Shown: positions 2 through 16,124 of the stretch, piece by piece
Numbering within the stretch: the first letter of the stretch is position 1
How the letters are laid out: each line of letters starts with the position of its first letter
Source: an uncultured Rhodospirillaceae bacterium
GTDB taxonomy: Bacteria; Pseudomonadota; Alphaproteobacteria; Dongiales; Dongiaceae
Length of the DNA stretch: 24,000 nt
Direction: 5' to 3'
NCBI GenBank assembly: GCA_964569315.1
Contig: CAZMUZ010000018.1
Span: 6,835-30,834, forward strand
The notes under the pieces: model-generated
Database searches by the model: none
Told to the model about the DNA's origin: nothing
Seen by the model: only the letters and a program-made list of their open reading frames with translations
Position numbers and translations under genes: made by a program

Positions 2-490
2 ATGCATACGCAGCCCGGCAAGGGCGGCGCCTATCTTCAGGTCGAGCTCAAGGACATCCGCGACGGGACCAAGCTCAACGAGCGCTTCCGTTCGAGCGAA
101 ACGGTGGAGCGCGTGCGGCTCGACGAGAAGGAATACCAGTTCCTCTTCGCCGACGGCGATCTCTTTACCTTCATGGACAGCGACACCTTCGAGCAGATCA
201 CGCTTGCCGAGGAGCTGATCGGCGAACCCGCGGTCTTCCTGCAGGATGGCATGGTGGTGACGGTCGAGAGCTACGAGGGGAGCCCGATCAGCGTCGAGCT
301 GCCGGAGACGGTGATCATGCAGATCGTCGAGGCCGACCCGGTGGTGAAGGGCCAGACGGCGGCCTCCTCCTACAAGCCGGCGAAGCTTTCGAACGGGGTT
401 CGCGTGATGGTGCCGCCGCATGTCGAGTCCGGCACCCGCATCGTCGTCAACACCGCCGACTCGAGCTACGTCGAGCGGGCCAAGGACTGA
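2..490 (+). CDS. efp: Translation elongation factor P, N-terminus cut by the window edge
   Basis: The ORF is open to the window start. The translation contains the EF-P loop QPGKGGA and the C-terminal pattern [27 protein letters not shown]. Stop TGA at 488-490. Confidence 0.9.
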
Positions 491-546: not shown

Positions 547-1368
547 ATGGCCGTCCGTTCGCCCGCGATCAATGTGATGATGAAGGCGGCAGACCGCGCC
601 GCGCGCGGCCTGCGCCGCGATTTCGGCGAGGTCGAGCATCTGCAGGTCTCGCCGAAGGGGCCCGGCGATTTCGTCAGCACCGCCGACCTCAAGGCCGAGC
701 GGATCCTGCGCGAGGAGCTCGGCAAGGCACGACCCGGCTACGGCTTCCTCATGGAGGAAAGCGGCGAGACCGCCGGCAGCGACGGCGAGCATCGCTGGAT
801 CGTCGATCCGCTCGACGGCACCACGAACTTCCTCCACGGCATTCCCCATTTCGCCATCTCGATCGGGCTCGAGCGCGCGGGCGAGATCGTCGCGGCCCTC
901 ATTCTCGATCCGATCAAGGACGAGCGCTACTGGGCCGAGAAGGGCACCGGCGCCTTCCTCAACGACCGGCGCATCCGCGTGTCCGGACGCAGGCGGCTCG
1001 CCGATGCGCTGCTCGCGACCGGCATCCCCTTCGCGGTCCATGGCGACCATGCGCGGTTCGGCGCGGAGCTGGCCGCCGTCATGCCCGCCGTTTCGGGGGT
1101 ACGCCGCCTCGGCGCCGCCTCGCTCGATCTCGCCTATGTCGCGGCCGGCCGCTACGAGGGGTTTTGGGAGCGCGGCCTTTCGCCCTGGGACGTGGCGGCG
1201 GGGCTGCTGATCGTCCGCGAAGCGGGCGGCTATGTCAGCGAGATCGAGGCCGAAGGCAACCCGGTCGTCACCGGCAATGTCCTGGCAGCCAACGACCATC
1301 TCCATGGCGAGATCGCGCGGCTGCTGACCGGCCGCGTCGCTTGGTCGCGGCCCGCGCCCTCCGCCTGA
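547..1368 (+). CDS. suhB: Inositol monophosphatase family protein (SuhB-like)
   Basis: ATG at 547 with AGGA 6 nt upstream. IMPase motifs WIVDPLDGTTNF and WDVAAGLLIVREAGG are present. 273 aa. Confidence 0.85.
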   Translation: MAVRSPAINVMMKAADRAARGLRRDFGEVEHLQVSPKGPGDFVSTADLKAERILREELGKARPGYGFLMEESGETAGSDGEHRWIVDPLDGTTNFLHGIPHFAISIGLERAGEIVAALILDPIKDERYWAEKGTGAFLNDRRIRVSGRRRLADALLATGIPFAVHGDHARFGAELAAVMPAVSGVRRLGAASLDLAYVAAGRYEGFWERGLSPWDVAAGLLIVREAGGYVSEIEAEGNPVVTGNVLAANDHLHGEIARLLTGRVAWSRPAPSA

Positions 1369-1394
1369 GGCCGGGCCGGCGCCGGGCAAGCCGG

Positions 1395-1423
1395 TTGTTC
1401 GCCCCCGACCGCTTGATTATAGT
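1395..1423 (+). promoter_or_regulatory. Candidate sigma70-type promoter for the ompA-like/motA-like/motB-like cluster
   Basis: TTGTTC (1395-1400), a 17-nt spacer, then TATAGT (1418-1423). It lies in the only AT-rich patch between suhB and the ATG at 1461. Pattern match only. Confidence 0.35.
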
Positions 1424-1460
1424 TTTGATTCTGTTGGCAGAACCCTGGGGCAGGCGGCGC

Positions 1461-2846
1461 ATGCGCGATCTCGGCAATCGATTCGCAGACCGGTGGTCCC
1501 TGCCCGTCGCCGCGCTTCGACGTCGCGGGCTCGCGGCGGCCCTCGTCACGGCCGGACTGCTTCCCGCCCTGCCGGCGGCGGCGCAGCAATATATCACCGC
1601 CGACCGCAACGTGATCATCGACTATGGCGCGCTCGAGAATCTGGGACCGTCGCCGACCGGCCCGGTCGTGATCGGCGGCCCGGCCACTTACGGGAATCCC
1701 TACCCGGCCGGTAGTAGCGCGCCGCTGCCGGCGCCCGCCACGGCGCCGAACAGCATGGCCTTCGTGCCGAAGCCCTTCGTGCCCGGACCGATCGCGCCGG
1801 TGAAGCGCACCCAGAGCACCACGACCGAGGCAAGCCCGCCGGCGCCGGCGCCCGCTTCCACCGCCGCGGCCGCGGTGACGCCACCGCCGCCGCCCGCGCC
1901 GGCACCGGCGCCCGTGCCACCGCTCGTGCCCTCGACGGCCGCCACGGCTCCGAACGATGCGCCGGCCGCGCCGGCAACGACCGCCTCCGAGATGCCCGCG
2001 CCGCCGGTGGTGCCGGCACCGCCCGCCGCACCTGCACCCGAGATGACGGCGACGCCGGCACCGCCCGCCGCGCCAGAATCCGGGACGGCGGCCGCGCCGG
2101 AAGCGGTTGCCGACGCCGTGCCGGAGCCGCCCGATATGCCCGCGCCGCCCGATACTCCCGCGCCGGAAGACAGCACCGTTTCCGACAGCGTGACGACCCC
2201 GACGGGCGACGTGGCGGTCACCAACAATCTCGGCGCCACCACCCCGCCGCCGCCGGAAGCGCCGCCCGTCGCGGGCTGGCCTACCGATGCAGAAACGCCG
2301 CCGCCGCCGACCGCGCCCGAGAGCCCGGTCGCCGCCGAGGTGACCGACGAGACCGTGGAGAGCGCGGACGAGGCGGCCACGGTCGACGAGGAAACCGGCG
2401 AAGCCGTCGCCGACATCGAGGAAGGCGCCGCACAGGTCGAGGCCGAAGCGGCCGAGGCGGTGGAGGACCAGGCTGCCGAGGACGAGAATGCGGATGGCGA
2501 CCAGTCCGCCGCCCTGCCGCCGGAACTGCCGGCCGGGGAATCGCTCCGCATCACCTTCGCCTCGGAATCCGCCGAGCTGCCGCCCGACATGCTGCCGCAG
2601 CTCGATCAGATCGCGGAGAAGATGCTGGGCGACGAGGCGCTCAGGCTCCAGCTCATGGCCTATGCGGCCGGCACCGAGGATACGGCCAGCAAGGCGCGGC
2701 GCATCTCGCTCTCGCGTGCGCTCGCCGTCCGAGCCTATCTCATCTCCAAGGGCATCCGCAGCTCGCGCATGGACGTGCGCGCGCTCGGCAACAATGTCGA
2801 GGGCGAACCGGCCGACCGGGTCGATCTCGTCGCCCAGACTCCTTGA
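1461..2846 (+). CDS. Secreted Pro/Ala-rich protein with a C-terminal OmpA-like peptidoglycan-binding domain
   Basis: The track ORF 420..2846 overlaps suhB. The plausible start is the in-frame ATG at 1461 (MRDLGNRF...). An N-terminal signal-like segment (RRRGLAAALVTAGLLPALPAAA/QQ) is followed by about 270 aa of P/A/T-rich low complexity and an acidic E/D/A stretch. The last ~110 aa read like an OmpA_C domain (LRITFASESAELP...ISLSRALAVRAYLISKGI...RVDLV). Confidence 0.75.
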   Translation: MRDLGNRFADRWSLPVAALRRRGLAAALVTAGLLPALPAAAQQYITADRNVIIDYGALENLGPSPTGPVVIGGPATYGNPYPAGSSAPLPAPATAPNSMAFVPKPFVPGPIAPVKRTQSTTTEASPPAPAPASTAAAAVTPPPPPAPAPAPVPPLVPSTAATAPNDAPAAPATTASEMPAPPVVPAPPAAPAPEMTATPAPPAAPESGTAAAPEAVADAVPEPPDMPAPPDTPAPEDSTVSDSVTTPTGDVAVTNNLGATTPPPPEAPPVAGWPTDAETPPPPTAPESPVAAEVTDETVESADEAATVDEETGEAVADIEEGAAQVEAEAAEAVEDQAAEDENADGDQSAALPPELPAGESLRITFASESAELPPDMLPQLDQIAEKMLGDEALRLQLMAYAAGTEDTASKARRISLSRALAVRAYLISKGIRSSRMDVRALGNNVEGEPADRVDLVAQTP

Positions 2847-2907
2847 GACCGGCGGCGCTGCGCTTGGCCGCCGATCGCGATACCGACACGGGCCCGACCG
2901 AAGCCGC

Positions 2908-4044
2908 ATGACCGAACCGCGCCGCTACCTCATCCTGATGGCGATCGGCGTTGTGGCGGCCCTGGTCATCGCGATCCTGCTGATCGGCCCGCTCGCCGAA
3001 GCCTTCGCCTACAACGCGCCGCTCAATACCGGCATCTTCATCGTGCTGGCGATCGGCATCGTCTTCATCTTCTGGCAGGTGCTGCGGCTCTATCCGGAGA
3101 TCGCCTGGATCGAGAGCTTCCGCCGCGGCCAGCTCACCGCCGCCAAGCCGCAACTGCTCGGGCCCATGGCGAGCATGATCGGCGACCGCCAGGGACGGTT
3201 GCGGCTCTCGGCCGCCGCCCTCCGTTCGCTGCTCGACGGCATCAATTCGCGGCTGTCGGAATCGCACGATATCTCGCGCTACCTCATCGCCCTGCTGGTG
3301 TTCCTCGGGCTGCTCGGGACCTTCTGGGGGCTGCTCGGCACGATCCGCGCGGTCGCCGATGCGATCGGCGGAATCTCCGTCGCCGGCGGCGCCGAGGTCT
3401 CCTCGCTCTTCGATCAGCTAAAGCAGAACCTGCAATCGCCGCTCTCCGGCATGGGCACCGCCTTCAGCTCCTCGCTCTTCGGCCTCTCGGGCTCGCTGGT
3501 GCTGGGTTTCCTCGAGCTGCAGGCGGGCCAGGCGCAGAACCGCTTCTATAACGAGCTCGAGGACTGGCTCTCGGCCCAGACCCGCCTTTCCGCGGGCGGC
3601 CCGGTCGGCGACGGGGAGCAGCCGGTGCCCGCCTATATCCAGGCGCTGCTGGAGCAGACCGCCGAGGGGTTGGAGAACCTGCAGCGCACCCTCTCCCATA
3701 CCGAGGACGCGCGGAGCGAGGCCGCCGCGGTCACCAAGTCGCTTGCCGACCGGCTCGGCCTGCTCGCCGACCAGATGCGCACCGAGCAGCATCTGATGGT
3801 GAAGATCGCCGAGAACCAGGCCGCGCTGCAGCCGGTGCTGACCCATCTCGCCGACCTGCTCGGGCGCGGCGCCTTCGGCCTCGACGACCAGAGCCGCCAG
3901 CATCTGCGCAGCCTCGACGGGCTGGCGCAGCGGCTGCTCGAGGAAGCGACCCGCGGGCGCCAGCAGACCGTCGGCGAGCTTCGCAGCGAGATCAAGCTCC
4001 TCGCCCGCACCATCGCCGCGCTCGCCGAGGGCGAGCGCCAGTAG
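2908..4044 (+). CDS. MotA/TolQ/ExbB-family proton-channel-like membrane protein with a long C-terminal helical tail
   Basis: In-frame ATG at 2908 (MTEPRRYLILMAIG...), 61 nt after the upstream stop. Four hydrophobic segments are present. TM3 FLGLLGTFWGLLGTI resembles the TolQ/ExbB GLxGTVxG motif, and TM4 is MGTAFSSSLFGLSGSLVLGF. About 175 C-terminal residues (from ~3514) are charged, Leu/Ala/Gln-rich and heptad-like. Confidence 0.75.
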   Translation: MTEPRRYLILMAIGVVAALVIAILLIGPLAEAFAYNAPLNTGIFIVLAIGIVFIFWQVLRLYPEIAWIESFRRGQLTAAKPQLLGPMASMIGDRQGRLRLSAAALRSLLDGINSRLSESHDISRYLIALLVFLGLLGTFWGLLGTIRAVADAIGGISVAGGAEVSSLFDQLKQNLQSPLSGMGTAFSSSLFGLSGSLVLGFLELQAGQAQNRFYNELEDWLSAQTRLSAGGPVGDGEQPVPAYIQALLEQTAEGLENLQRTLSHTEDARSEAAAVTKSLADRLGLLADQMRTEQHLMVKIAENQAALQPVLTHLADLLGRGAFGLDDQSRQHLRSLDGLAQRLLEEATRGRQQTVGELRSEIKLLARTIAALAEGERQ

Positions 4045-4057
4045 AGGCCCGCGCCCC

Positions 4058-5218
4058 ATGCCCGGCTCGATCCGCGCCCGGCGGCCCTTCGAAGTCTGGC
4101 CCGGCTATGTCGACGTGCTGTCGACCCTGCTGATGGTCGTGATCTTCGTGCTGATGGTCTTCGTCATCGCGCAGTTCTTCCTCTCGAACGCGCTTTCCGG
4201 GCGCGACCGGGCGCTGGCCGAGATCAACCGACAGGTGGCCGAGCTTTCCGAGCTCCTGGCGCTGGAGCGCTCCACCAGCTCGGAGCTCCGGCTCAATCTC
4301 GCGGAGCTTTCGAACCAGCTCCAGTCCGCCGTCACCGCCCGCGATGCGCTGCAGCGCGAGCTCATCGCCGCGACCGGCGAGCGGAACGCGCTCAGGGCGA
4401 GCGGCGCCAATGCCGACGCCAGTCTCGAGGATGCCTACAAGGTGATCGAGGCCGACAAGGCCAAGATCGAGACCCTGCTCGGGAACGTCGCCGCGCTCGA
4501 AAGCCTGCGCGATGAGCTGATGCAAAGGCTCCATGCCGAGGAAACCGAGCATGAGCGGACCGCCATCGCGGCCGACAGGCTCACCGAGGAGCAGCAGCGC
4601 GAGATCGAGATCCTGAACCGGCAGCTCACCTCGCTCCGCCAGCAGCTTGCGCGGCTCTCGGTGGCGCTCGACGTCGCCAAGACCGAGGCCGAGGCGCAGC
4701 AGGTCCAGATCGTCGATCTCGGCAAGAAGCTCAACCTGGCGCTCGCCGGCAAGGTCGAGGAGCTCGCACGCTACCGCTCGGAATTCTTCGGCCGGCTGCG
4801 CGAGGTGCTGGGCGACCGCACCGATGTGCGGATCGTCGGCGACCGCTTCGTGTTCCAGTCGGAAGTGCTGTTCGACACGGCGTCGGCCGAGCTCGGCGAG
4901 GCCGGCCGGCAGCAGCTTGCCCAGTTCGCCCGTACCCTCGTCGAGGTCGCCGCCAGATTCCCGCCGGAGATCGACTGGATCCTCCGCGTGGACGGCCACA
5001 CCGACAACCGGCCGATCAGCACGCCGCAATTCGCCTCGAACTGGGAACTTTCGACGGCGCGCGCCATCGCGGTCGTCAAGTTCCTCGAATCCCAGGGACT
5101 TCCGCCGCAGCGCCTTGCGGCCACCGGCTTCGCCGAATATCAGCCGCTTGCCTCGGGCACGGGCGAAGACGTATTCCGCCTCAATCGCCGGATCGAGCTC
5201 AAGCTCGACCAGCGCTAG
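4058..5218 (+). CDS. MotB/OmpA-family protein: N-terminal TM helix with a conserved Asp, long coiled coil, C-terminal OmpA-like peptidoglycan-binding domain
   Basis: ATG at 4058, 13 nt after the upstream stop. The N-terminus WPGYVDVLSTLLMVVIFVLMVF matches the MotB/TolR/ExbD TM pattern with its Asp. About 200 aa of coiled-coil-like sequence follow. The C-terminus reads FVFQSEVLFDTASAELGEAG...VDGHTDNRPI...NWELSTARAIAVVKFL...GFAEYQP...NRRIELKL, a classic OmpA/MotB C-domain. Confidence 0.8.
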   Translation: MPGSIRARRPFEVWPGYVDVLSTLLMVVIFVLMVFVIAQFFLSNALSGRDRALAEINRQVAELSELLALERSTSSELRLNLAELSNQLQSAVTARDALQRELIAATGERNALRASGANADASLEDAYKVIEADKAKIETLLGNVAALESLRDELMQRLHAEETEHERTAIAADRLTEEQQREIEILNRQLTSLRQQLARLSVALDVAKTEAEAQQVQIVDLGKKLNLALAGKVEELARYRSEFFGRLREVLGDRTDVRIVGDRFVFQSEVLFDTASAELGEAGRQQLAQFARTLVEVAARFPPEIDWILRVDGHTDNRPISTPQFASNWELSTARAIAVVKFLESQGLPPQRLAATGFAEYQPLASGTGEDVFRLNRRIELKLDQR

Positions 5219-5227
5219 GAGCGTTCG

Positions 5228-6121
5228 ATGTCGGAAGCGATCCGCCGGGCGGCGGTGCTCAATATCGACATGGATCTGCTGCGGACCTTCCAAACCGTGG
5301 CGGAGCTGAACGGCGTGACCCGCGCCGCCGAGCGGCTCGGGCGCTCGCAGCCGGCGATCAGCCTGCAGCTCCAGCGCCTCGAAGGGCTGCTCGGGACCGC
5401 CCTCTTCCATCGCAACCGCCAGGGCCTGGCTTTGACCGAGGCCGGGCAGCTTCTGCATGGCTATGCGGAGCGCATCCTCGGCCTCAATGACGAGGCGATC
5501 ATCCGCCTCGTCGCGCGCAAGACGGTCGGCACCGTCAGGGTCGGGCTGCCGAACGACTATGCGGTGTCGGTGCTGCCGGAGAGCCTCGGCCGTTTCGCCG
5601 AGGCGCATCTCGATGCGAGCCTGACGGTCGGCTGCGCCCTCTCGACCGAGCTGCTGGCGGGGCTCGATGCCGGCGCCTACGACCTCGTCATCGCCATGAC
5701 CGCCGAGCCGCCGACGCGCCCGGCGATCCGGGTCTGGCGCGAGGCGCTGGTCTGGGTCGGCAAGCCGGGCACTGCGCGCGACCCGCAGGAGCCCGTGCCA
5801 CTCATCGTCTATCCCGAGGGTTGCATCTATCGCGAACGGATGGTGCGCGCCCTCAACGGGGTCGGCCGGGCCTGGCGCATGATCTATACGAGCCCGAGCC
5901 TCTCGAGCCTGATGGCGGCGGCGAAATCCGGCCTCGGCCTGACCGTGCTGTCGCGCCGCACCGTGCCGCCGGAACTGGCGCAGCTCGCACCCGGCGGCGA
6001 TCTGCCCACCCTCGAAAACGTCTGGGTGGGGCTTTATCGCGGCACGCAGAGCCTCTCGCCCGCGGCCGAGCGGCTCGCGGATTTCATCCTGAAGAGCTAC
6101 GAGCCCGAAGCGGCGCCTTGA
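5228..6121 (+). CDS. LysR-family transcriptional regulator
   Basis: ATG at 5228 with AGGAG overlapping the preceding TAG stop, leaving a 9-nt gap. HTH segment TFQTVAELNGVTRAAERLGRSQPAISLQLQRLE plus an LTTR-length substrate-binding region. 297 aa. Confidence 0.85.
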   Translation: MSEAIRRAAVLNIDMDLLRTFQTVAELNGVTRAAERLGRSQPAISLQLQRLEGLLGTALFHRNRQGLALTEAGQLLHGYAERILGLNDEAIIRLVARKTVGTVRVGLPNDYAVSVLPESLGRFAEAHLDASLTVGCALSTELLAGLDAGAYDLVIAMTAEPPTRPAIRVWREALVWVGKPGTARDPQEPVPLIVYPEGCIYRERMVRALNGVGRAWRMIYTSPSLSSLMAAAKSGLGLTVLSRRTVPPELAQLAPGGDLPTLENVWVGLYRGTQSLSPAAERLADFILKSYEPEAAP

Positions 6122-6335
6122 GCCGTTCCGCCGCCGCCCGAAGGCAAGACGGCGATGCGCGGCGCGCAGATGCCAGCGGTTCGGGAGCAGGCACGCGCCA
6201 GGACGAACCTGACCGCCTCTGTTCGACGCCGCAACCCGTCTCCTCACTCTTCGGCAACGCGTCACTTTCGAGATTCAGCATCGGCAAGGCCGCCGCTATA
6301 GTGCCGGGGCTGTATCAGTATGGAGTGTGTCTGCC

Positions 6336-6809
6336 ATGCCGTTCGTCGAGCCGACCGAGACCGATCGCCATTTCATGCGGCTTGCCCTGGCCGAAGCGCA
6401 GAAGAGCTTCGACGAGGGCGGCGTGCCCGTCGGCTCCGTCATGGTCCGCAACGGCAAGGTCTTCGCGACGGGCCAGAACCGGTTCCGCCAGACCAACGAT
6501 CCCACCTGCCATGCCGAGGTCGATTGCGTGCGCAACGGCGGCATGCAGATCGCCGGCTATGACGACGTGACGCTCTATTCCACCTTGAGCCCCTGCATGA
6601 TGTGCACGGGCGCGATGCTGTTCGTCGGCGTGCCGAAGGTGGTGATCGGCGACCGCGAGACCTATCCCGGCGACGTGGAATTCCTGGTGGCGCGCGGCCT
6701 CGAGGTCGTGCTGCTCGACGATCCGGACTGCATCCGGCTGTTGCGCCGCTTCATCCACGAGAACCAGGAATTCTGGAACGGCGTGGTGTTGGGCGGCGAC
6801 CGGGGCTGA
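6336..6809 (+). CDS. CMP/dCMP-type zinc deaminase resembling yeast Fcy1 cytosine deaminase
   Basis: The track start at 6327 is a GTG only 1 nt after GGAG. The ATG at 6336 has better spacing. Zinc motifs CHAE and PCMMC are present. Length (~157 aa) and blocks TLYSTLSPCMMCTGAM and VVLLDDPDCIRLLRRFIHENQEFW align by eye with my memory of Fcy1. Confidence 0.75.
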   Translation: MPFVEPTETDRHFMRLALAEAQKSFDEGGVPVGSVMVRNGKVFATGQNRFRQTNDPTCHAEVDCVRNGGMQIAGYDDVTLYSTLSPCMMCTGAMLFVGVPKVVIGDRETYPGDVEFLVARGLEVVLLDDPDCIRLLRRFIHENQEFWNGVVLGGDRG

Positions 6810-6831
6810 GCCCGCCCGCGTCCCCGCCGGC

Positions 6832-7911
6832 TCAGCGCGGCAGGATGTAGGCGCTCGCGGCGTCCCAGCCGAGGGCGAGCGCCTGTCCGGTCCCGAGATC
6901 GAGGCCGGCCACCTCGCGCTGCGGCTTCTGCACGCGGAACTCGAGGCCGGCGCCGGCCTCGACGAAGAGCGTCACGACCGAGCCGATGAACTGCTCGCTC
7001 ACCAGATTGCCGGAGACCCTGTTCTCCTGCGCCGCACCGCCGAGCCCGATGCCATCGGCGCTGACCACGTAATCCACCTCGTCCCCGGCCTTGATCCCGC
7101 GCCCGGCCGGCACGGTCGCCGAAAAGCGCCCGGCAGGCGTTGCGACCATGGCACGGTTGCCGTCGAGCGCCTCCACCTTGCCGGCGAGGATGTTGTTGGT
7201 GCCGACGAAGCCCGCCACGAAGCGGTTGACCGGGTTGCGATAGACGTCCTTCGCGGGCCCCGCCTGCTCTATCCGGCCGTTATTCATGATGACGACGCGG
7301 CTCGCCATGGCGAAGGCTTCGGACTGGCTGTGCGTCACGTAGAAGAAGGTGATCCCCAGCTCCCGGTGCAGGCGGATGAGCTCGGCCTGCATGCGGACCA
7401 CGAGATGGGCGTCGAGCGCACTCATCGGCTCGTCCAGCAGCAGGATCTCGGGCTCCGTCACGAGCGCGCGGGCGAGCGCCACGCGCTGCTTCTGGCCGCC
7501 GGAGAGCGTGCTCACGTCGCGGCCCGCGAACTCGCCGATGCCGAGCCGCTCCAGCCAGTGGAGCGCACGCTTGCGTCGCTCGGCGGCGCTCATGCCGCGC
7601 ATCTTGAGGCCGAACTCGACGTTCTTGAGCACGCTGAGAAACGGGAAGAGCGCGAGGCTCTGCCAGACCAGCGGCGTGTCGCGTTCCCAGGGCTTCACCT
7701 CGTTCATCAGGCGGCCGCGCAGCCGGATCTCGCCGGCGCTCGGCGCCTCAAGGCCCGCGATCATCCGCAGCGTCGTGGTCTTGCCGCAGCCGCTCGGGCC
7801 CATGATGGCGACGAACTCGCCCTTGTCGATCGCGAGATCGATGCCGCGCACGGCGACGGCCGCGCCGTAGCTCTTGGTGAGGCTGGATAGCGTCAGTAGC
7901 TGTTCAGCCAC
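6832..7911 (-). CDS. ABC transporter ATP-binding protein (PotA/spermidine-putrescine-type, with a C-terminal TOBE-like region)
   Basis: Walker A GPSGCGKTT, signature LSGGQKQRVALARAL, Walker B ILLLDEP. GTG start at 7911 overlaps the upstream permease stop by 8 nt. Confidence 0.9.
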   Translation of the reverse strand: MAEQLLTLSSLTKSYGAAVAVRGIDLAIDKGEFVAIMGPSGCGKTTTLRMIAGLEAPSAGEIRLRGRLMNEVKPWERDTPLVWQSLALFPFLSVLKNVEFGLKMRGMSAAERRKRALHWLERLGIGEFAGRDVSTLSGGQKQRVALARALVTEPEILLLDEPMSALDAHLVVRMQAELIRLHRELGITFFYVTHSQSEAFAMASRVVIMNNGRIEQAGPAKDVYRNPVNRFVAGFVGTNNILAGKVEALDGNRAMVATPAGRFSATVPAGRGIKAGDEVDYVVSADGIGLGGAAQENRVSGNLVSEQFIGSVVTLFVEAGAGLEFRVQKPQREVAGLDLGTGQALALGWDAASAYILPR

Positions 7912-8740
7912 GGGCAGGCTCCGTTGCTTGCGCTTCGCGGGACGCCAGCTTGCGGCGATCCGGATTGCGGATGATGAGGGCGACCTGCGCCAGAATCACC
8001 AGCAACATGGTGATGGTGAAGACGATGCTCCCGATCGCATTGATGCGCGGGCTGACCCGGCCCTGGAACAGGGCGAGGATCCGGACCGGCAGGGTCTCGT
8101 TGAAGCCCGAGACGAAGAAGGCGATGGCGAATTCGTCGAAGGAGACCGCCATGGTGATGAAGAGGGCGGAGAAGATCGACGGCAGGGCGAAAGGCAGGAT
8201 GATCTCGCGCATGGCGCGCCATTGGCTGGCGCCGAGATTCCAGGCCGCGGCCTCCAGGCTCGGATCCATCTGCGACAGCCGCAACCGGATGAGCGCCATG
8301 GCGAACGGCAGACAGAGCACGACATGGCTGACGATGACGGAATGGAGCTCGCCGAAGAGCCCGACCTGGGAAAGGAAGACGAGCATGGCAAGCCCGAGGA
8401 TCACCACCGGAATGGTCGGCGGCAGCAGCGCCAGCGCGAGATAGACGTTCTTGCCGAAGAAACGGTAGCGGAAATCGGTGTAGGCGGCCCCGAATCCGAG
8501 CACGGTCGAGAGCAACGAGACCGAAACGCCGATGATGAGGGTGTTGACGAGCGCCGGCAGGATCGTCGGATCGTCGGCGATCGCCTCGTACCATTCCGTG
8601 GTGAAGTCGCCGAGCGGCAAGGTCGGGAAGCGCTGCGAGTTGAAGGAGATGACGAAACTCACCACGATCGGCAGGAAGATGAAGCCGAAGACGAGGGCGA
8701 GATAGAGCCACAGCAGCGGATTGACGAAGCGTCCGCTCAT
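7904..8740 (-). CDS. ABC transporter permease (PotC-like)
   Basis: Start ATG at 8740 (MSGRFVNPLLWLY...) forms an ATGA overlap with the upstream permease stop. The protein is polytopic and hydrophobic with an EAA-loop-like segment LEAAAWNLGASQWRAMREIILP. Confidence 0.85.
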   Translation of the reverse strand: MSGRFVNPLLWLYLALVFGFIFLPIVVSFVISFNSQRFPTLPLGDFTTEWYEAIADDPTILPALVNTLIIGVSVSLLSTVLGFGAAYTDFRYRFFGKNVYLALALLPPTIPVVILGLAMLVFLSQVGLFGELHSVIVSHVVLCLPFAMALIRLRLSQMDPSLEAAAWNLGASQWRAMREIILPFALPSIFSALFITMAVSFDEFAIAFFVSGFNETLPVRILALFQGRVSPRINAIGSIVFTITMLLVILAQVALIIRNPDRRKLASREAQATEPARG

Positions 8741-9606
8741 GCGCGCTGCCCGCCCCGGCCATAGGCGAAGATGAGAGCGGCGAAGCAGATGACCAGCAAG
8801 GTCACCGCCATCATCACGGCGACGACCGAAGCCTCGGGCCAGTTCGCACCCGATTTCACCACGTCGAGGATGAGGATGCTCAAGGTCGGCGGCTTGCTGC
8901 CGCCGAGCAGCGTCGGGCCGACATAGTCGCCGAAAGCGAGGATGAAGGCGAAGGCGGCGGCCAGCACGAGCCCGATCTTGGCCGAGGGGATGATGACCTG
9001 GAACACGGTGCGGAGCGCGCCGCAGCCGAGATTGTGCGCCGCCTCCACCAGATTGCGATCGACATAGGCGAGGCTGAAGAGCTGCAGCAGGACGACCAGC
9101 GGCAGGACCAGCGTCAGGTAACCCACCATCGTGCCGAGGAGGTTGTTCACCATCAGAAACGGCCCCAGCCCCACGAAGCCGAACACCGCATTCACCATGC
9201 CGTTGCCGGTCAGGATGATCTTCCAGGTGTAGGTGCGGACGAGGTAGCTGGTGAAGAACGGCGTGATCAGCAGGAAGACCCCGAGCCAGCGCGTGTTGGT
9301 GCTGACCCGAAAGGCGAGGAAATAGGCGCAAGGGAAGGCCAGCAGGCTCGCCAGCGCCGCGGCCAGGAACCCGTAGAGACAGGTGCGGAAGTAGATGTCC
9401 CAGAAATAGCCGGCGGAGAGCAGCTTCGCCCAGTTATAGAAGCTGAAATCGGGCGTCACCCGGAAATTGACGACCACCCAGAAGCTCATCACCACCAGGA
9501 AGAGGAGCGGAGCGGCGAAGAAGGCGAGCTGCCAGACCAGCATCGGCAGGCCGAAGACGAGGCCGAAGGCGCGCGGCGCCCTCGCTCTTGCTGCCGTCGC
9601 CGGCAT
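8737..9606 (-). CDS. ABC transporter permease (PotB-like)
   Basis: Internal ATG at 9606 (MPATAARARAPRAFGLVFGLPMLVWQL...). The longer track ORF adds an Arg/Gly-rich non-membrane extension. EAA-like segment LVEAAHNLGCGALRTVFQVIIP. Confidence 0.8.
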   Translation of the reverse strand: MPATAARARAPRAFGLVFGLPMLVWQLAFFAAPLLFLVVMSFWVVVNFRVTPDFSFYNWAKLLSAGYFWDIYFRTCLYGFLAAALASLLAFPCAYFLAFRVSTNTRWLGVFLLITPFFTSYLVRTYTWKIILTGNGMVNAVFGFVGLGPFLMVNNLLGTMVGYLTLVLPLVVLLQLFSLAYVDRNLVEAAHNLGCGALRTVFQVIIPSAKIGLVLAAAFAFILAFGDYVGPTLLGGSKPPTLSILILDVVKSGANWPEASVVAVMMAVTLLVICFAALIFAYGRGGQRA

Positions 9607-9726
9607 GTGCCGCTCTGTCGTGGCTCCGCTGGACAATGCGGGATTCCCCTTCCGATCCGCCCCGATATCCTGTCGATCGCGCGCCGCGGGCCGCAGGGGC
9701 GAGCCGACCTGCCTGACGCCGCAGAC

Positions 9727-9755
9727 GGCGAGCCCCGGTTCGCCCGGGGCTCGCC
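9727..9755 (-). other. Intercistronic GC-rich stem-loop between the binding-protein and permease genes
   Basis: Perfect 12-bp stem GGCGAGCCCCGG / CCGGGGCTCGCC with a 5-nt loop and no U-tract. It lies in the 186-nt gap after the binding-protein stop at 9793. Confidence 0.5.
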
Positions 9756-9792
9756 TCACGCGGTTGTCGCTCTCGCGCTTCGTATGGCGCGA

Positions 9793-10935
9793 TTAGAGGT
9801 TCTTGAACTCGGTGAAGGCGTCGTTCCACTCGGTCAGCGACTGCTGTTTCGGCAGGTCGCGGATGAAGATCTTGCCTTCCTTGTACTCGTCCATGACGTT
9901 GCGCTGATCGAGCTGGTGCTGCAGGAGCTTCGCCCAGTCCGGATGCTGCTCGTTCAGCAGCGTCCAGCCCGCCTTGTTCGGGATCGAGCCCGAATAGGCG
10001 GGCTTGATCGCGATCCGCATCTGGCCTTCCGGCGACGCCATGTACTGGACGAACGCCTTGGCGAGATCCTGCTTGCTGCTGGTCTTGGCGATGCCCATCG
10101 CCTCGCTCCACTGCAGCCCGCCTTCGTCCGGCACGATGTCCTCGACCGGCACGTTCTCCTTCTTGAGCATGAGGGTGAGCCAGGCGCCGGTGCCCGGCAT
10201 GATCCAGGCTTCGCCCTGCGAGAGCATCGAGAAAGCCTGGGCGAAGGCGCCGATGCCGACGACCTGCGGCTTCAGGCTGAAGAGCGTGTCCTTGAGCTTC
10301 TCGAACTGCTCGGCGTTGATGTCGTAGGGCGGCTTGTTGCCGTTCGCGAGGCTAAGGCAGAGCATGGGCGGCAGGTACCAGTCGTACATGCCGACCTTCC
10401 CCTTCACCTTCTCGTTCCACATGATCTGGTAGGTCTTCATCTCGTCGGGCGACATATGCTCGGTGTTGTAGGTCATGCCGAGATAGCCGAAGCTCGTCAT
10501 CACCGCATACATCTTGTCGTCGGCCCACAGGCCCGGGAAATTCTGGAACTCGGGCCAGAACTCGTCGATGTGGTAGTCTGCCGGATCGAGCGTCTCGAGC
10601 ACGTCGGCCTGCCGCAGCATCTCGACATACTCGGCGTCGCTCAGCACCACGTCGAAGGTGCCTGGAGGCGACGAGTTGAGAAGCGCCAGCATGTTGTCGC
10701 CGCCGGTATATTCCTTGCCGACGATCTTGACCCCATGCGCCTGCTCGAATGGACCGACGACCGACGGGTCGGTATAGCCCGGCCAGCTCAGCAGCGTGAG
10801 TACCTCCTCCGCGCGGCCGCTCTTCGGCAGGGCGGAGGCCGCGACTGCGCCGCCGATCGTGGCGGCGGCGCCTTTCAACATCTTGCGCCGGCTCATCTCG
10901 CCGACGAACTGGCCTGGTGATATTCCGCGAAACAT
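9793..10935 (-). CDS. ABC transporter periplasmic substrate-binding protein (PotD/PotF family), Tat-like signal peptide
   Basis: ATG at 10935 with GGGAGGAA 7-8 nt upstream. The N-terminus MFRGISPGQFVGEMSRRKMLKGAAATIGGAVAASALP is twin-arginine-like, and an alternative start exists at 10896. The mature protein begins EEVLTLLSWPGYTDP, typical of the family. Confidence 0.85.
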   Translation of the reverse strand: MFRGISPGQFVGEMSRRKMLKGAAATIGGAVAASALPKSGRAEEVLTLLSWPGYTDPSVVGPFEQAHGVKIVGKEYTGGDNMLALLNSSPPGTFDVVLSDAEYVEMLRQADVLETLDPADYHIDEFWPEFQNFPGLWADDKMYAVMTSFGYLGMTYNTEHMSPDEMKTYQIMWNEKVKGKVGMYDWYLPPMLCLSLANGNKPPYDINAEQFEKLKDTLFSLKPQVVGIGAFAQAFSMLSQGEAWIMPGTGAWLTLMLKKENVPVEDIVPDEGGLQWSEAMGIAKTSSKQDLAKAFVQYMASPEGQMRIAIKPAYSGSIPNKAGWTLLNEQHPDWAKLLQHQLDQRNVMDEYKEGKIFIRDLPKQQSLTEWNDAFTEFKNL

Positions 10936-10968
10936 CTCGAATTCCTCCCTGTCTTCTCGGTTGCGTGC

Positions 10969-11066
10969 CCGGCATTGCGCCGGGCGCCGCCGCGCCGTTT
11001 TGTTATGACGGTCGCTGAGCCTACCCGCCTCGGATCGGGCGTCCAAATTATTAGCGGCAATGCCGG
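10969..11066. repeat. 10-bp perfect inverted repeat pair in the divergent control region
   Basis: CCGGCATTGC (10969-10978) and GCAATGCCGG (11057-11066). Each lies within a local palindrome (CCCGGCATTGCGCCGGG and CGGCAATGCCG). Confidence 0.6.
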
Positions 11067-11131
11067 TATTTGAATAGCCAATCGGCTGAGGTCTTGCCCT
11101 CCCGCATGAATCCGGCGAGGATTCGTTCTTG

Positions 11132-11147
11132 TTGACAATACAGTCAA
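11132..11147 (+). promoter_or_regulatory. Dyad TTGAC-N6-GTCAA abutting the creatininase Shine-Dalgarno sequence
   Basis: TTGACAATACAGTCAA at 11132-11147. AAGGAG at 11146-11151 and ATG at 11158. This could be an operator or an RNA hairpin occluding the SD. Confidence 0.3.
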
Positions 11148-11157
11148 GGAGCGGGCC

Positions 11158-11976
11158 ATGGCCGAAAGCGTCAGAATTGCCGAGATTCCGTGGACCAGCT
11201 ACGAGAAGCGCATCCGCGGGGGCGACGGCCTCGTCCTTCTGCCGGTCGGCTCGCTGGAGCAGCATGGGCCCCATCTGCCGCTGAACTGCGACATCGCCAT
11301 CCCGACCGCCATTTCCGAGCGGGTCGCGCAGCGGATCGACGGGCTCGTGGCCCCCACCATCGCCTATGGCTACAAGTCCCAGCCCAAGATGGGCGGCGGG
11401 CAGCATTTCCCGGGCACCACCAGCCTCGACGCCATGACCCTCATCTACACCGTGCGCGACGTGATCAAGGAGTTCGCGCGGCACGGCGTACGCAAGATGG
11501 CCGTGGTCGTGGGGCACTACGAGAACACGATGTTCACGATCGAGGGCATCGATCTCGCGCTGCGCGACTTGCGGGCCGACGGCGTCCAGGACATGAAGAT
11601 CGTGCGCGCCGACTATTGGGACTTCACCAGCCAGCAGACCATCGAGAAGGTCTGGACCGAAGGCTTCCCCGGCTGGGCGACCGACCATGCCGGCGTGATG
11701 GAGACCTCGATCATGCTGCATCTCCATCCGGAGCTGGTCGATATGGAGCAGTGCCCGATGCATCCGCCGGCGCAGTTCCCGCCCTATGACGTCTATCCGA
11801 TCAATCCGGCCTGGGTCCCGGCCGACGGTGCGCTCTGCTCGCCGAAGGTGGCGACCGCCGCCAAGGGCAAGATCATGATCGACGAGTTCACCGCCGAGAT
11901 CTCGAAGGCCCTCAAGGGCGAGTTCCAGCTCCGCGAAGGCGGCGGCCAGAGCAAGGCGAAGCGCGCCGCGGAGTAG
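11158..11976 (+). CDS. crnA: Creatinine amidohydrolase (creatininase)
   Basis: Aligns by eye along its length with my memory of Pseudomonas putida creatininase. Metal-ligand blocks GSLEQHGPHLPL, GHYEN and DHAGVMETS are present, as are YGYKSQPKMGGGQHFPGTTSLD and PPYDVYP. Confidence 0.88.
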   Translation: MAESVRIAEIPWTSYEKRIRGGDGLVLLPVGSLEQHGPHLPLNCDIAIPTAISERVAQRIDGLVAPTIAYGYKSQPKMGGGQHFPGTTSLDAMTLIYTVRDVIKEFARHGVRKMAVVVGHYENTMFTIEGIDLALRDLRADGVQDMKIVRADYWDFTSQQTIEKVWTEGFPGWATDHAGVMETSIMLHLHPELVDMEQCPMHPPAQFPPYDVYPINPAWVPADGALCSPKVATAAKGKIMIDEFTAEISKALKGEFQLREGGGQSKAKRAAE

Positions 11977-12019
11977 CTTCCCGCGACTGCCGAACGCCGA
12001 TCGGCAGGATCGAAAGCAG

Positions 12020-12054
12020 GAGAGCCGGGCGATGCCGCCCGGCTCTCTTTTTTC
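12020..12054. terminator. Intrinsic terminator shared by the convergent creatininase and creatinase genes
   Basis: 12-bp stem GAGAGCCGGGCG / CGCCCGGCTCTC with a 4-nt loop. TTTTTTC follows on the + strand. The - strand tail CTGCTTTCG is weaker. Confidence 0.75.
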
Positions 12055-12082
12055 TTTCCATGGGTCCGGAAGGATCCGGCCG

Positions 12083-13291: not shown

Positions 13292-13374
13292 GATCTGTCC
13301 CCGATAAAGCCGCCGCCGCAGGGGCGCGGCCGAGGCGGGGGAGTTTCCGGGCTCGGCCGCCGGGAGGCAAATCA

Positions 13375-13399
13375 ATTGGCCTAATGACCGGATTGGCCT
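13375..13399. repeat. Direct repeat ATTGGCCT x2 in the AT-rich patch upstream of creatinase
   Basis: ATTGGCCT at 13375-13382 and 13392-13399. Read on the gene strand, these are AGGCCAAT about 80-110 nt upstream of the creatinase ATG. Confidence 0.5.
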
Positions 13400-13435
13400 C
13401 GATTATTGCGCGGCCGCTCTTCTCGCGCCCGAAAC

Positions 13436-15265: not shown

Positions 15266-15293
15266 GCGACGGTCCGCTCTGCCCGCACGGGGA

Positions 15294-15818: not shown

Positions 15819-15849
15819 TCGCCTTCCCGAACGCGGAGCGCCGACGGCC

Positions 15850-16077: not shown

Positions 16078-16124
16078 CGCCGGGCCCGGCCGGCCCGGGC
16101 TCTCGCAAGCGCGCTTTAAGGGAA

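What the first reader, a model, noticed from the sequence alone, without database searches (positions are those of the whole stretch)
1395..5218. Orphan stator-like operon: Pro-rich OmpA-like protein, MotA/ExbB-like channel and MotB-like anchor, with no flagellar, Tol, Ton or Zorya partners in view
Three same-strand genes are separated by 61 and 13 nt and preceded by their own candidate promoter. They encode (i) a secreted low-complexity protein ending in an OmpA-like domain. They also encode (ii) a four-TM protein with the GLLGTxWG motif of MotA/TolQ/ExbB ion channels. The third, (iii), is a single-TM protein with the invariant-type Asp (YVDVLSTLL) and an OmpA/MotB peptidoglycan-binding C-domain. 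That is the parts list of an ion-driven 5:2 stator unit. However, the neighbours are efp/suhB and a LysR gene, not fli/flg, tolA/pal/ybgF, tonB or zorCD. Both stator-like proteins carry long extra helical regions absent from the textbook MotAB, TolQR and ExbBD proteins, and there are two separate peptidoglycan-binding domains. The Pro-rich first protein loosely recalls the periplasm-spanning TonB/TolA partners, although its N-terminus looks like a cleavable signal. The function is not deducible from sequence. Envelope tethering, energised signalling and defence sensing are all open inferences.
Basis: partly seen in the sequence, partly recalled or inferred. Interest (0 to 1): 0.78.

Follow-up and report, generated by a model that had tools for sequence, protein, structure and literature searches.

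The report
Conserved alphaproteobacterial ZorAB/MotAB-like ion motor
The three genes are real and most likely encode a wall-anchored, ion-driven membrane motor related to flagellar stators and to the Zorya phage sensor; the motor pair (A and B) is a conserved chromosomal pair in many Alphaproteobacteria, and I found no tested function for it.

Summary
Three same-strand genes lie at 1461-2846 (g1), 2908-4044 (g2) and 4058-5218 (g3), separated by 61 and 13 nt.

- **g1** has a signal peptide, a Pro/Ala-rich spacer and an OmpA-like domain.
- **g2** is a 4-TM A-type channel subunit. Pfam MotA_ExbB is below threshold, but a ZorA1 HMM scores 8.6e-15. hhalign against a solved ZorA gives 93.5%. The AF2 model matches only ExbB, TolQ, ZorA and MotA.
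- **g3** is a B-type subunit with a conserved TM Asp19, about 200 residues of periplasmic coiled coil and a MotS/PomB-like peptidoglycan-binding domain. It passes the NCBIfam PRK09039 cut-off.

"Orphan" is misleading. The g2-g3 pair is adjacent wherever the flank was long enough in 80 species genomes. It usually follows efp-suhB in a housekeeping neighbourhood, and the same holds in Sinorhizobium meliloti. g1 is accessory (58 of 80 loci). No flagellar, Tol, Ton or Zorya effector genes are nearby. The pair has no phage match, and its only 'plasmid' matches are 3.5-4.6 Mb non-mobilizable records.

The best reading is a non-flagellar, non-defence motor of presumed A5B2 stoichiometry, fixed to peptidoglycan, whose output is the A subunit's cytoplasmic helical tail. 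Its physiological role is unknown and probably concerns the envelope. I rate it a new variant of a known kind, of moderate interest.

The parts
2..490 (+). efp (elongation factor P); a conserved syntenic neighbour, not part of the machine
   Evidence: ORF. efp sits upstream of the pair in most of 80 loci. Pfam EFP domains are found at the same position in a distant locus.
547..1368 (+). suhB-type inositol monophosphatase; a conserved syntenic neighbour
   Evidence: In S. meliloti the orthologous position is smc03994, annotated suhB.
   Evidence: The scan found no sigma-70 consensus. It found a weak hairpin with a T-poor tail at 1392-1411.
1461..2846 (+). g1: secreted accessory OmpA-like protein (461 aa)
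   Evidence: Pfam OmpA 3.6e-9. A homologue occupies the same position in 58 of 80 loci.
1461..1586 (+). g1 signal-peptide-like N-terminus (residues 1-42, ending PAAAQ)
   Evidence: Read directly from the sequence. Homologues have similar N-termini. No signal-peptide predictor was run.
1608..1646 (+). g1 conserved motif at the mature N-terminus, NVIIDYGALENLG (pattern h-x-h-D/N-x-x-V/A-L)
   Evidence: Found in 34 of 49 full-length homologues, against 0.8 expected in shuffles.
1647..2390 (+). g1 Pro/Ala/Thr-rich spacer (residues 63-310); its end overlaps an acidic stretch (residues 285-355)
   Evidence: Composition. The length varies widely among homologues.
2538..2843 (+). [quoted passage not shown]
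   Evidence: Pfam OmpA over residues 365-445. NCBIfam PdsO/YiaD-type OmpA hits fall below their cut-offs.
2908..4044 (+). g2: A-type (MotA/ExbB/TolQ/ZorA superfamily) channel subunit, 378 aa
   Evidence: PADLOC ZorA1 8.6e-15. hhalign to ZorA of 8vvn gives 93.5%. The top 50 Foldseek matches shown are all ExbB, TolQ, ZorA or MotA.
2926..3084 (+). g2 TM1 (residues 7-27) and TM2 (residues 41-59)
   Evidence: Hydrophobic segments and AF2 helices 4-24 and 37-59.
3280..3345 (+). g2 TM3, carrying the invariant GLLGTFWGL motif (3307-3333)
   Evidence: Invariant columns G134 to T145 in 24 homologues. This segment aligns to the ExbB GLFGTVWGI motif.
3448..3519 (+). g2 TM4, GMGTAFSSSLFGL...
   Evidence: Invariant columns P178, G181, M182, F186, S189, G192 and L193. 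It aligns to ZorA GAKIAFLTSVWGV.
3529..4041 (+). g2 cytoplasmic helical tail (residues 208-378), with conserved PAY..ALLEQTAE at its start and LR.EIRLLARTIA at its end
   Evidence: AF2 helices 242-319 and 327-377. Conservation. Weak apolipoprotein-like profile hits.
4058..5218 (+). g3: B-type subunit (386 aa), NCBIfam PRK09039 'peptidoglycan -binding protein'
   Evidence: NF006543 scores 462.9 bits against a cut-off of 305. It lies next to g2 in all loci whose flank is long enough.
4097..4183 (+). g3 W-P-G-x-V-D motif and single TM helix; Asp19 is at 4112-4114
   Evidence: W14, P15, G16 and D19 are at least 90% conserved in 75 homologues. D19 is invariant in alignment A2. S. meliloti has WPGFVDALSTLL.
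4190..4810 (+). g3 periplasmic coiled-coil region (residues 45-251), with a helix break at 172-176
   Evidence: AF2 helices 17-171 and 177-251. Family lengths range from 332 to 661 aa, and the variation lies in this region.
4826..5215 (+). g3 MotB/PomB/MotS-type OmpA-like peptidoglycan-binding domain (residues 257-386)
   Evidence: Pfam OmpA 2.5e-14. PDB PomB and MotS 3.6e-16 to 1e-15. Foldseek to MotS 9ljl 7e-12 at 31% identity.
5228..6121 (+). LysR-family gene starting 9 nt after the g3 stop; a neighbour that may be co-transcribed, not a conserved partner
   Evidence: This adjacency is seen only in the closest relative, L001. The family was read from the translation and no HMM was run on it.

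Best explanation
**What it is.** g2 and g3 encode the two subunits of a non-flagellar, peptidoglycan-anchored, ion-driven membrane motor of the MotAB/ExbBD/TolQR/ZorAB superfamily. The stoichiometry is presumed to be A5B2.

**How it is built.**
- g2 is a 4-TM protein with both termini in the cytoplasm. It would form the outer ring.
- The TM helices of a g3 dimer would sit in the centre, with the conserved Asp19 facing the conserved Thr/Ser-rich TM3 and TM4 of g2.
- g3 is fixed to the cell wall through a long periplasmic coiled coil and a MotB/PomB-type OmpA-like domain.

**How it would work.** Proton or Na+ flow through the A/B interface would turn the A ring relative to the wall-fixed B dimer. 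The moving output is the A subunit's cytoplasmic helical tail of about 170 residues. This is a short version of the ZorA tail, and its conserved tip presumably contacts a cytoplasmic or membrane partner.

**Role of g1.** g1 is an accessory periplasmic peptidoglycan-binding protein. It has a conserved N-terminal strand-like motif and a Pro-rich spacer. It is present in about 70% of the related loci.

**Biological context.** The system is a vertically inherited chromosomal module of Alphaproteobacteria. Its role is most likely envelope-related, either sensing or mechanical coupling between wall, membrane and cytoplasm. It is not motility and not phage defence.

**Shown.** Family relationships, conserved residues, domain architecture and synteny.

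**Inferred.** The 5:2 stoichiometry, ion coupling, rotation, the tail as output, and the physiological role.
For: **A subunit**
- PADLOC ZorA1 scores 8.6e-15.
- A profile search of the PDB hits ZorA 8vvn_C at 1.8e-4.
- hhalign to that ZorA gives 93.5% over 205 columns.
- The AF2 model has pLDDT 79, and all 50 top Foldseek matches shown are ExbB, TolQ, ZorA or MotA chains.
- GLLGTFWGL and GMGTAFSSSLFGL are invariant across 24 homologues down to 33% identity.

**B subunit**
- It passes NCBIfam PRK09039.1-2.
- The WPG.VD motif is at least 90% conserved in 75 sequences.
- The C-terminal domain is most similar to MotS, PomB and MotB.

**Pairing**
- A and B are adjacent in every one of 80 loci whose flank is long enough, with short gaps.
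- The gap is 2 nt in S. meliloti.

**Housekeeping character**
- The thiE, epmB-like, efp, suhB neighbourhood is conserved.
- S. meliloti carries orthologues at 44% and 42% identity next to suhB and rgsF.
- There is no phage match, and the only 'plasmid' matches are 3.5-4.6 Mb non-mobilizable records labelled plasmid or pSymB.

**Published model for ZorAB.** ZorAB is described as a 5:2, PMF-driven, peptidoglycan-anchored motor with a rotating cytoplasmic tail (PMC11946911).
Against: - No multimer model or experiment supports the 5:2 assembly or ion flow here.
- Pfam MotA_ExbB is below its gathering score, and no NCBIfam MotA, TolQ or ExbB model hits at all.
- The tail has about 170 residues against about 500 in E. 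coli ZorA, and it contains two breaks. It may not form a ZorA-like bundle.
- The B coiled coil varies from roughly 130 to 450 residues. If extended it would be longer than the periplasm, so its geometry is unexplained.
- No phenotype is known. The inferred S. meliloti genes are absent from the held essential-gene lists and from the Rgs pull-downs.
- The envelope role is a guess from architecture and context.
Confidence: 0.6

Rival explanations
1. It is a divergent flagellar stator (MotAB/PomAB-type), as automatic annotation names it. It would deliver torque to FliG.
For: - NCBI and JGI annotations call the homologues 'flagellar motor protein MotA' and 'chemotaxis protein MotB'.
- The g3 C-terminal domain is most similar to MotS, PomB and MotB.
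- In one distant homologue the pair lies about 1 kb from hook genes (L082 and L083).
Against: - No NCBIfam MotA model hits g2. The MotB, MotD and MotS models hit g3 only through the OmpA domain and far below their cut-offs.
- The cytoplasmic TM2-TM3 loop has only about 65 residues.
- The conserved neighbours are efp and suhB, not fli, flg or che genes.
- The same distant homologue sits next to topA and dsbD in another contig (L084).
- S. meliloti has its own MotA, MotB, MotC and MotF stator set (title and abstract of PMC9541039, listed) in addition to this pair.
Confidence: 0.05
2. It is a Zorya-like anti-phage sensor. ZorAB-type motor activity would be triggered by envelope damage and would signal through the tail to effectors encoded elsewhere.
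For: - The best HMM matches are ZorA1 (8.6e-15) and ZorB3 (5e-23).
- hhalign to ZorA gives 93.5%.
- The A subunit has a cytoplasmic helical tail, as ZorA does.
Against: - No ZorC, D, E, F or G-like genes occur in the window or among the conserved neighbours.
- The synteny is fixed in the core genome from Rhodospirillales to Rhizobiales, which is unlike defence islands.
- No copies occur on phages or true plasmids.
- NCBIfam ZorA subfamily models score far below their cut-offs, at 15 bits against 100 to 500.
- The tail is about one third of the ZorA length.
Confidence: 0.07
3. It is a Tol- or Ton-like energiser in which the Pro-rich g1 plays the role of TolA/TonB. g1 would carry force from the inner-membrane motor to the wall or outer membrane.
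For: - g1 has a long Pro-rich spacer like TonB and a conserved N-terminal strand-like motif that could dock by beta-augmentation.
- g2 shares the GL(L/F)GT.WG motif with ExbB and TolQ.
- The top fold matches are ExbB and TolQ.
Against: - g1 has a signal-peptide-like N-terminus rather than a TM anchor that could sit in the A ring.
- g1 is missing from 22 of 80 loci and from S. meliloti.
- g3 carries its own OmpA-type wall anchor. By my own knowledge of TolR and ExbD they lack such a domain, and this was not tested here.
- S. meliloti has a separate tolQRAB-pal system (PMC7327166).
Confidence: 0.1
4. It is a static envelope tether or scaffold. The channel-like fold would be a structural relic, and the proteins would merely link the inner membrane to peptidoglycan without ion-driven movement.
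For: - The module has two peptidoglycan-binding domains and a long, length-variable coiled coil.
- There is no known output partner.
Against: Several features characteristic of ion coupling in this superfamily are strictly conserved: the TM Asp of B and the Thr/Ser/Gly faces of A TM3 and TM4. This holds down to 33-35% identity.
Confidence: 0.12

Closest known systems
ZorAB, the core of the Zorya anti-phage systems (PDB 8vvn, 8qyd; PMC11946911)
   Same: - The A subunit is the nearest by sequence (ZorA1 HMM 8.6e-15; hhalign 93.5% over TM3, TM4 and the start of the tail).
- A carries a cytoplasmic C-terminal helical tail.
- B has a TM Asp and an OmpA-like peptidoglycan-binding domain.
   Different: - The tail has about 170 residues against about 500.
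- There are no ZorC, D, E, F or G effector genes.
- It is a core-genome, vertically inherited locus rather than a defence island.
- B has a periplasmic coiled coil of 130-450 residues. By my recollection ZorB has none, and this was not tested here.
- NCBIfam ZorA models are not passed.
MotAB, PomAB and MotPS flagellar stator units
   Same: - The A subunit has four TM helices with N- and C-termini inside.
- B has a TM Asp.
- The B C-terminal domain is most similar to MotS and PomB (30-31% identity; Foldseek 7e-12).
   Different: - No MotA family model is matched.
- The TM2-TM3 loop is short (about 65 residues).
- There is a long A tail and a long B coiled coil in place of a plug and short linker.
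- There is no flagellar gene linkage.
ExbBD and TolQR (Ton and Tol-Pal energisers)
   Same: - They are the best fold matches (ExbB 5sv0; TolQ 9kq0 and 8vlw).
- They share the GL(L/F)GT.WG motif in the pore-lining helix.
   Different: - By textbook knowledge, not tested here, ExbB and TolQ have three TM helices and ExbD and TolR lack an OmpA-like domain.
- No TonB, TolA, TolB or Pal genes are nearby.
- hhalign to ExbB covers only 22 columns.
NCBIfam PRK09039 'peptidoglycan -binding protein', with the S. meliloti pair inferred to be SMc03993/SMc03992
   Same: - g3 passes the NF006543 cut-off.
- The S. meliloti pair next to suhB is 44% and 42% identical and has the same architecture.
   Different: - These are database names only. 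No function is attached to them.
- The S. meliloti locus lacks g1 and has rgsF (SMc03995) upstream of suhB.

Membership tests
MotA/TolQ/ExbB superfamily (Pfam PF01618) A subunit | Match to the PF01618 profile at or above its gathering score | tested here: not met
   17.4 bits against a cut-off of 22.9, E 0.0038, covering residues 103-152 only.
MotA/TolQ/ExbB superfamily (Pfam PF01618) A subunit | A-subunit fold, with the conserved pore-lining helix pair | tested here: met
   The AF2 model (pLDDT 79) matches only ExbB, TolQ, ZorA and MotA chains among the top 50 shown, with prob about 1.0 and target-normalised TM-score up to 0.59. The GLLGTFWGL motif is invariant.
5:2 ion-driven motors (MotAB, ExbBD, TolQR, ZorAB) | A5B2 stoichiometry | not testable with these tools
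   No multimer prediction or experiment was available.
5:2 ion-driven motors (MotAB, ExbBD, TolQR, ZorAB) | B subunit with a single N-terminal TM helix carrying a conserved Asp, encoded next to A | tested here: met
   Asp19 is at least 90% conserved in 75 homologues and invariant in 25. A and B are adjacent in all loci with enough flank.
Flagellar stator MotAB/PomAB | Match to curated MotA and MotB equivalog models at their cut-offs | tested here: not met
   g2 has no MotA model hit. g3 hits MotD, MotS and MotB models at 52-99 bits against cut-offs of 250-312, through the OmpA domain only.
Flagellar stator MotAB/PomAB | Genomic or regulatory linkage to flagellar genes | tested here: not met
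   The window and the conserved neighbours are housekeeping genes. S. meliloti carries this pair; its separate flagellar stator is taken from the title and abstract of PMC9541039, listed.
Flagellar stator MotAB/PomAB | Cytoplasmic loop with the charged FliG-contacting residues | tested here: inconclusive
   The loop has about 65 residues (63-127) and did not align to MotA in any search. No residue-level comparison was possible.
Zorya (types I-III) | ZorA and ZorB homologues | tested here: inconclusive
   PADLOC ZorA1 8.6e-15 and ZorB3 5e-23, and hhalign 93.5%. However, NCBIfam ZorA_2 and ZorA_4 score 15 and 14 bits against cut-offs of 100 and 500.
Zorya (types I-III) | Cognate effector genes (ZorC/ZorD, ZorE, or ZorF/ZorG) in the operon | tested here: not met
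   None occur in the window or among neighbours conserved across 80 loci.
Zorya (types I-III) | Long ZorA tail (about 500 residues, about 70 nm) | tested here: not met
   The tail has about 170 residues, with breaks at 229-241 and 320-326. E. coli ZorA has a tail spanning residues 223-729 (PMC11946911).
Tol-Pal / Ton | TolQ-TolR-TolA-TolB-Pal or ExbB-ExbD-TonB gene set, with a membrane-anchored transducer | tested here: not met
   No such genes are nearby. g1 has a signal-peptide-like N-terminus, not a TM anchor. g3 has an OmpA-like domain.
NCBIfam PRK09039 (NF006543) peptidoglycan-binding protein | Score at or above the curated cut-off | tested here: met
   462.9 bits against 305.
OmpA-like peptidoglycan-binding domain (PF00691), in g1 and g3 | Profile match above the gathering score, with the conserved Asp and Arg of the DAP-binding site | tested here: met
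   g1 scores 37.3 bits and g3 53.8 bits against a cut-off of 27.2. GHTDNRP...STARA in g3 and GTEDT...SLSRA in g1 were read from the sequence. Actual peptidoglycan binding was not tested.

The most novel reading that the evidence does not exclude
The pair is a housekeeping cousin of the Zorya sensor. It would be a PMF-driven rotary device, conserved across Alphaproteobacteria, that reads the state of the cell wall through its coiled-coil and OmpA arm. It would pass that information, or mechanical work, into the cytoplasm through a rotating helical tail. That would make it a new functional class of 5:2 motor. It could also be the evolutionary source of ZorAB, or a derivative of it.
Probability: 0.25. 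Interest if true: 0.8.

Novelty: new variant of a known kind. Interest (0 to 1): 0.55.

Why it matters
Only a handful of roles are known for 5:2 ion-driven motors: flagellar rotation, Ton uptake, Tol-Pal envelope maintenance, gliding and type 9 secretion, and Zorya defence.

This pair has the Zorya-type layout of a wall-anchored B subunit and a tailed A subunit. It nevertheless behaves like a core gene pair across a whole bacterial class that includes rhizobia, Azospirillum and acetic acid bacteria.

If it is an active motor, it would add a new physiological role to the family. It would also give a tractable, apparently non-essential system, for example in S. meliloti, for asking what a rotating cytoplasmic tail does.

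There is also a practical point. Current genome annotation mislabels these genes as flagellar MotA and MotB.

Tried and rejected
- PRK09039 appears only in unrelated genome notes.
- SMc03993 appears once, as an intragenic ChvI-binding fragment in an EMSA screen.
- SMc03992 and the guessed neighbouring Rhizobium leguminosarum locus tags RL4023-RL4027 gave nothing.
- A substring search for 'c03993' was swamped by DOI strings.
- The Rgs/Tol-Pal paper does not list the pair among its pull-downs.
- The MotAB evolution paper and the 5:2 motor review do not describe this family.

**Identifying model-organism homologues.** Two cluster look-ups gave almost no names or taxa.

**Negative scans.** Rfam, tRNA and sigma-70 promoter scans of the window found nothing relevant.

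**Tests that came out negative.**
- B length does not compensate for absence of g1: the median is 439 aa with g1 and 425 aa without.
- The protein downstream of an orphan distant A homologue is not a relocated B subunit.

**Rejected idea.** I considered a functional link between efp and the polyproline-rich g1. I rejected it because the efp-suhB-A-B order persists where g1 is absent.

Full report
**Observation.** The window is GC-rich (64-74%). It carries, on the + strand, efp (2-490), a suhB-type inositol monophosphatase (547-1368), g1 (1461-2846, 461 aa), g2 (2908-4044, 378 aa), g3 (4058-5218, 386 aa) and a LysR-family gene (5228-6121). The intergenic gaps of 61 and 13 nt are as reported. 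The long antisense ORFs over this region are GC-driven shadow ORFs. The nearest database proteins are 98-100% identical and come from Dongiaceae (Rhodospirillales) metagenome-assembled genomes.

**g1.** The N-terminus looks like a signal peptide ending PAAAQ. It is followed by a short motif (NVIIDYGALENLG), a Pro/Ala/Thr-rich spacer (residues 63-310), an acidic stretch (residues 285-355) and an OmpA-like domain (Pfam 3.6e-9). A protein of this design sits directly upstream of g2 in 58 of 80 related loci, and its spacer length varies widely. The motif h-x-h-(D/N)-x-x-(V/A)-L near the mature N-terminus occurs in 34 of 49 full-length homologues, against 0.8 expected from shuffles. g1 is therefore a real but accessory gene. 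It is absent from 22 of 80 loci and from S. meliloti.

**g2.**
- Pfam MotA_ExbB matches only weakly (17.4 bits, below the 22.9 cut-off), and no NCBIfam MotA, TolQ or ExbB model hits.
- The PADLOC ZorA1 model scores 8.6e-15.
- A profile of 24 homologues finds the solved type I ZorA of Shewanella (8vvn_C, 1.8e-4) as the only membrane protein among the best 60 PDB matches shown.
- hhalign of that profile against the ZorA segment gives 93.5% probability over 205 columns. These columns span the two core TM helices and the start of the tail.
- Against E. coli ExbB, only 22 columns align, around the GLxGTxWG motif.
- An AlphaFold2 model (mean pLDDT 79) matches only ExbB, TolQ, ZorA and MotA chains among the top 50 Foldseek PDB matches shown.
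- The sequence shows four hydrophobic helices (residues 7-27, 41-59, 125-146 and 181-204). Positive charges flank them in a way that fits N- and C-termini in the cytoplasm. The TM2-TM3 loop has 65 residues and the C-terminal helical tail about 170.
- GLLGTFWGL and P..GMGTAFSSSLFGL are invariant down to 33% identity. The start of the tail (PAY..ALLEQTAE) and its end (LR.EIRLLARTIA) are also conserved.

**g3.**
- It passes the NCBIfam equivalog PRK09039.1-2, 'peptidoglycan -binding protein' (462.9 bits against 305).
- The N-terminus carries WPGYVDVLSTLL at the start of a single TM helix. Asp19 is at least 90% conserved in 75 homologues taken from the loci and invariant in 25 database homologues.
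- AlphaFold2 predicts one helix from residue 17 to 171, a break at 172-176, a second helix at 177-251, and then an OmpA-like domain.
- That domain is closest to the periplasmic domains of MotS, PomB and MotB (phmmer 3.6e-16 to 1e-15; Foldseek 7e-12 at 31% identity).
- Family members range from 332 to 661 aa, and the variation lies in the coiled coil. A conserved module (LG..LN.ALA..V.EL..YRSEFFG.LR) precedes the OmpA domain.

**Distribution and context.**
- The A subunit family is large. There are 2512 clusters at 50% identity with E<=1e-3 and 517 with E<=1e-30.
- In the best 80 loci, g3 follows g2 wherever the flank is long enough, and efp-suhB precede the pair in most. These loci come from Dongiaceae, Rhodospirillaceae, Azospirillum, Thalassospira, Kiloniellaceae, Defluviicoccus, Acetobacteraceae and others.
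- Clustering all ORFs of these loci shows a conserved housekeeping neighbourhood. It comprises GAPDH, aldolase, thiE, an EpmB-like radical-SAM gene, efp, suhB, optionally g1, then A, B and a convergent ABC exporter.
- A 35%-identical A homologue on a 47% GC contig still follows efp-suhB, but it has no B gene beside it.
- g2 has no match in 50,697 phage records. Among 'plasmid' records it matches only 3.5-4.6 Mb, non-mobilizable records of Sinorhizobium and Shinella.

**Sinorhizobium meliloti.**
- The gene order there is thiE, a Sel1-repeat gene, an inositol monophosphatase, 'MotA/TolQ/ExbB proton channel family protein' (368 aa), 'peptidoglycan -binding protein' (342 aa), an ABC gene and rpmE.
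- Published primers identify the Sel1-repeat gene as rgsF, SMc03995. rgsF is an essential factor that localises at zones of wall growth (PMC7327166).
- smc03994 is suhB.
- By sequential numbering the pair should be SMc03993/SMc03992. This is an inference.
- The proteins are 44% and 42% identical to g2 and g3 and keep WPGFVDALSTLL.
- SMc03993 holds an intragenic ChvI-binding fragment in an EMSA screen (PMC3687685).
- Neither gene appears in the held essential-gene tables or in the Rgs pull-downs. Some of the stored supplementary files are truncated, so this is weak evidence of non-essentiality.
- S. meliloti also has a separate Tol-Pal system (PMC7327166). A separate flagellar MotABC/MotF stator is indicated by the title and abstract of PMC9541039 (listed).

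**Interpretation.** The conserved adjacent A and B genes, the Asp-bearing TM helix of B, the Thr/Ser/Gly-rich invariant helices of A and the MotB-type wall anchor are the features shared by the 5:2 ion-driven motors. The nearest relative by sequence is ZorAB. Its published model is a PMF-driven A5B2 motor, fixed to peptidoglycan by ZorB, that rotates a cytoplasmic ZorA tail (PMC11946911).

I therefore read g2-g3 as a wall-anchored ion-driven motor whose output is the conserved cytoplasmic tail of g2. Stoichiometry, ion flow, rotation and the tail's partner are all inferred, not shown.

The fixed core-genome location, the vertical pattern, the lack of effector genes and the absence from mobile elements argue against a defence role. 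The lack of any MotA-family match, the short cytoplasmic loop and the housekeeping neighbours argue against a flagellar role. g1 cannot be a TonB/TolA-type transducer because it has no membrane anchor and is dispensable in many lineages. It is more likely a wall-bound accessory factor, and its conserved N-terminal motif may dock onto a partner.

One point is unexplained. The B coiled coil has about 130-450 residues, which is about 20-65 nm if extended. My estimate of the membrane-to-wall distance is shorter than that. The break at residues 172-176 would allow a fold-back, but no coordinates or dimer model were available to test this.

**Comparison and novelty.** The sequences are already in databases under generic or wrong names: 'peptidoglycan -binding protein', 'MotA/TolQ/ExbB proton channel family protein' and 'flagellar motor protein MotA'.

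The family passes the structural and residue-level tests for the superfamily. It fails the defining tests for flagellar stators, Zorya, Tol-Pal and Ton. I rate it a new variant of a known kind.

Its interest is moderate. Specialists already know that many uncharacterised MotAB/ExbBD relatives exist (PMC12505986). A ZorAB-like, tailed, wall-anchored motor conserved as a core gene pair across Alphaproteobacteria is nonetheless a concrete and testable lead.

Noticed in passing
window 2-490 (efp) and 1461-2846 (g1): g1 has three runs of four or more prolines and 20 Pro-Pro dipeptides. It lies two genes downstream of efp, whose product relieves ribosome stalling on polyproline. The efp-suhB-A-B order persists where g1 is absent, so a functional link is doubtful.
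   Followed up: partly
window 1608-1646: The g1 family has a conserved short motif at the mature N-terminus (h-x-h-D/N-x-x-V/A-L; here NVIIDYGALENLG). It occurs in 34 of 49 homologues against 0.8 expected by chance. It may be a docking strand, but its partner is unknown.
   Followed up: partly
window 5218-5228: The LysR-family gene starts 9 nt after the g3 stop on the same strand, so it may be co-transcribed. This adjacency is seen only in the closest relative, L001.
   Followed up: partly
window 3628-4041 (g2 tail): The profile of the g2 tail gives weak hits to apolipoprotein A-I and A-IV (E 5e-5 to 1e-3). Sources have labelled homologues 'gas vesicle protein' or 'phasin'. This suggests amphipathic, possibly membrane-surface-binding helices.
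   Followed up: no
L081 3340-7979 (S. meliloti): In S. meliloti the pair lies two genes downstream of rgsF (SMc03995), an essential polar-growth and division factor. The gene inferred to be SMc03993 contains a ChvI-binding fragment reported in an EMSA screen.
   Followed up: partly
L085 and L086 1741-2880: A 35%-identical A-subunit homologue on a 47% GC contig still follows efp-suhB but has no B gene next to it. EamA and pyruvate kinase genes follow instead. The protein of 420-481 aa further downstream is unrelated to g3.
   Followed up: yes
window 1230-2909 (-), 3992-6265 (-), 420-2846 (+, upstream part): Very long ORFs lie antisense to, or extend upstream of, the real genes. They are GC-rich shadow ORFs, and their translations are Arg/Gly/Pro-rich with low complexity.
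   Followed up: partly
window 6327-24000: The rest of the window is metabolic or transport. It holds an ORF I read from its translation as a cytidine/deoxycytidylate-type deaminase (6327-6809; no HMM was run). An ABC uptake system spans about 6832-11763, of which only the solute-binding protein was confirmed by Pfam. Pfam also identified creatininase (11158-11976), an M24 creatinase/prolidase (12083-13375, -), an ABC exporter (13436-15265, -), a flavodoxin-like reductase (16180-17112, -), a Cys/Met PLP enzyme (19629-20990, -), a GST (21667-22521) and a zinc ADH (22597-23826). A DUF1192 match lies on the opposite strand near 22561-22740. S. meliloti also has a DUF1192 gene a few kb downstream of its pair.
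   Followed up: partly
L082 and L083 1303-5087 compared with L084: One distant homologue (P0210) has flagellar hook genes (flgE, flgD, fliK-like) about 1 kb upstream on the opposite strand in two contigs. The identical protein sits beside topA and dsbD in a third contig, so the flagellar linkage is not conserved.
   Followed up: yes
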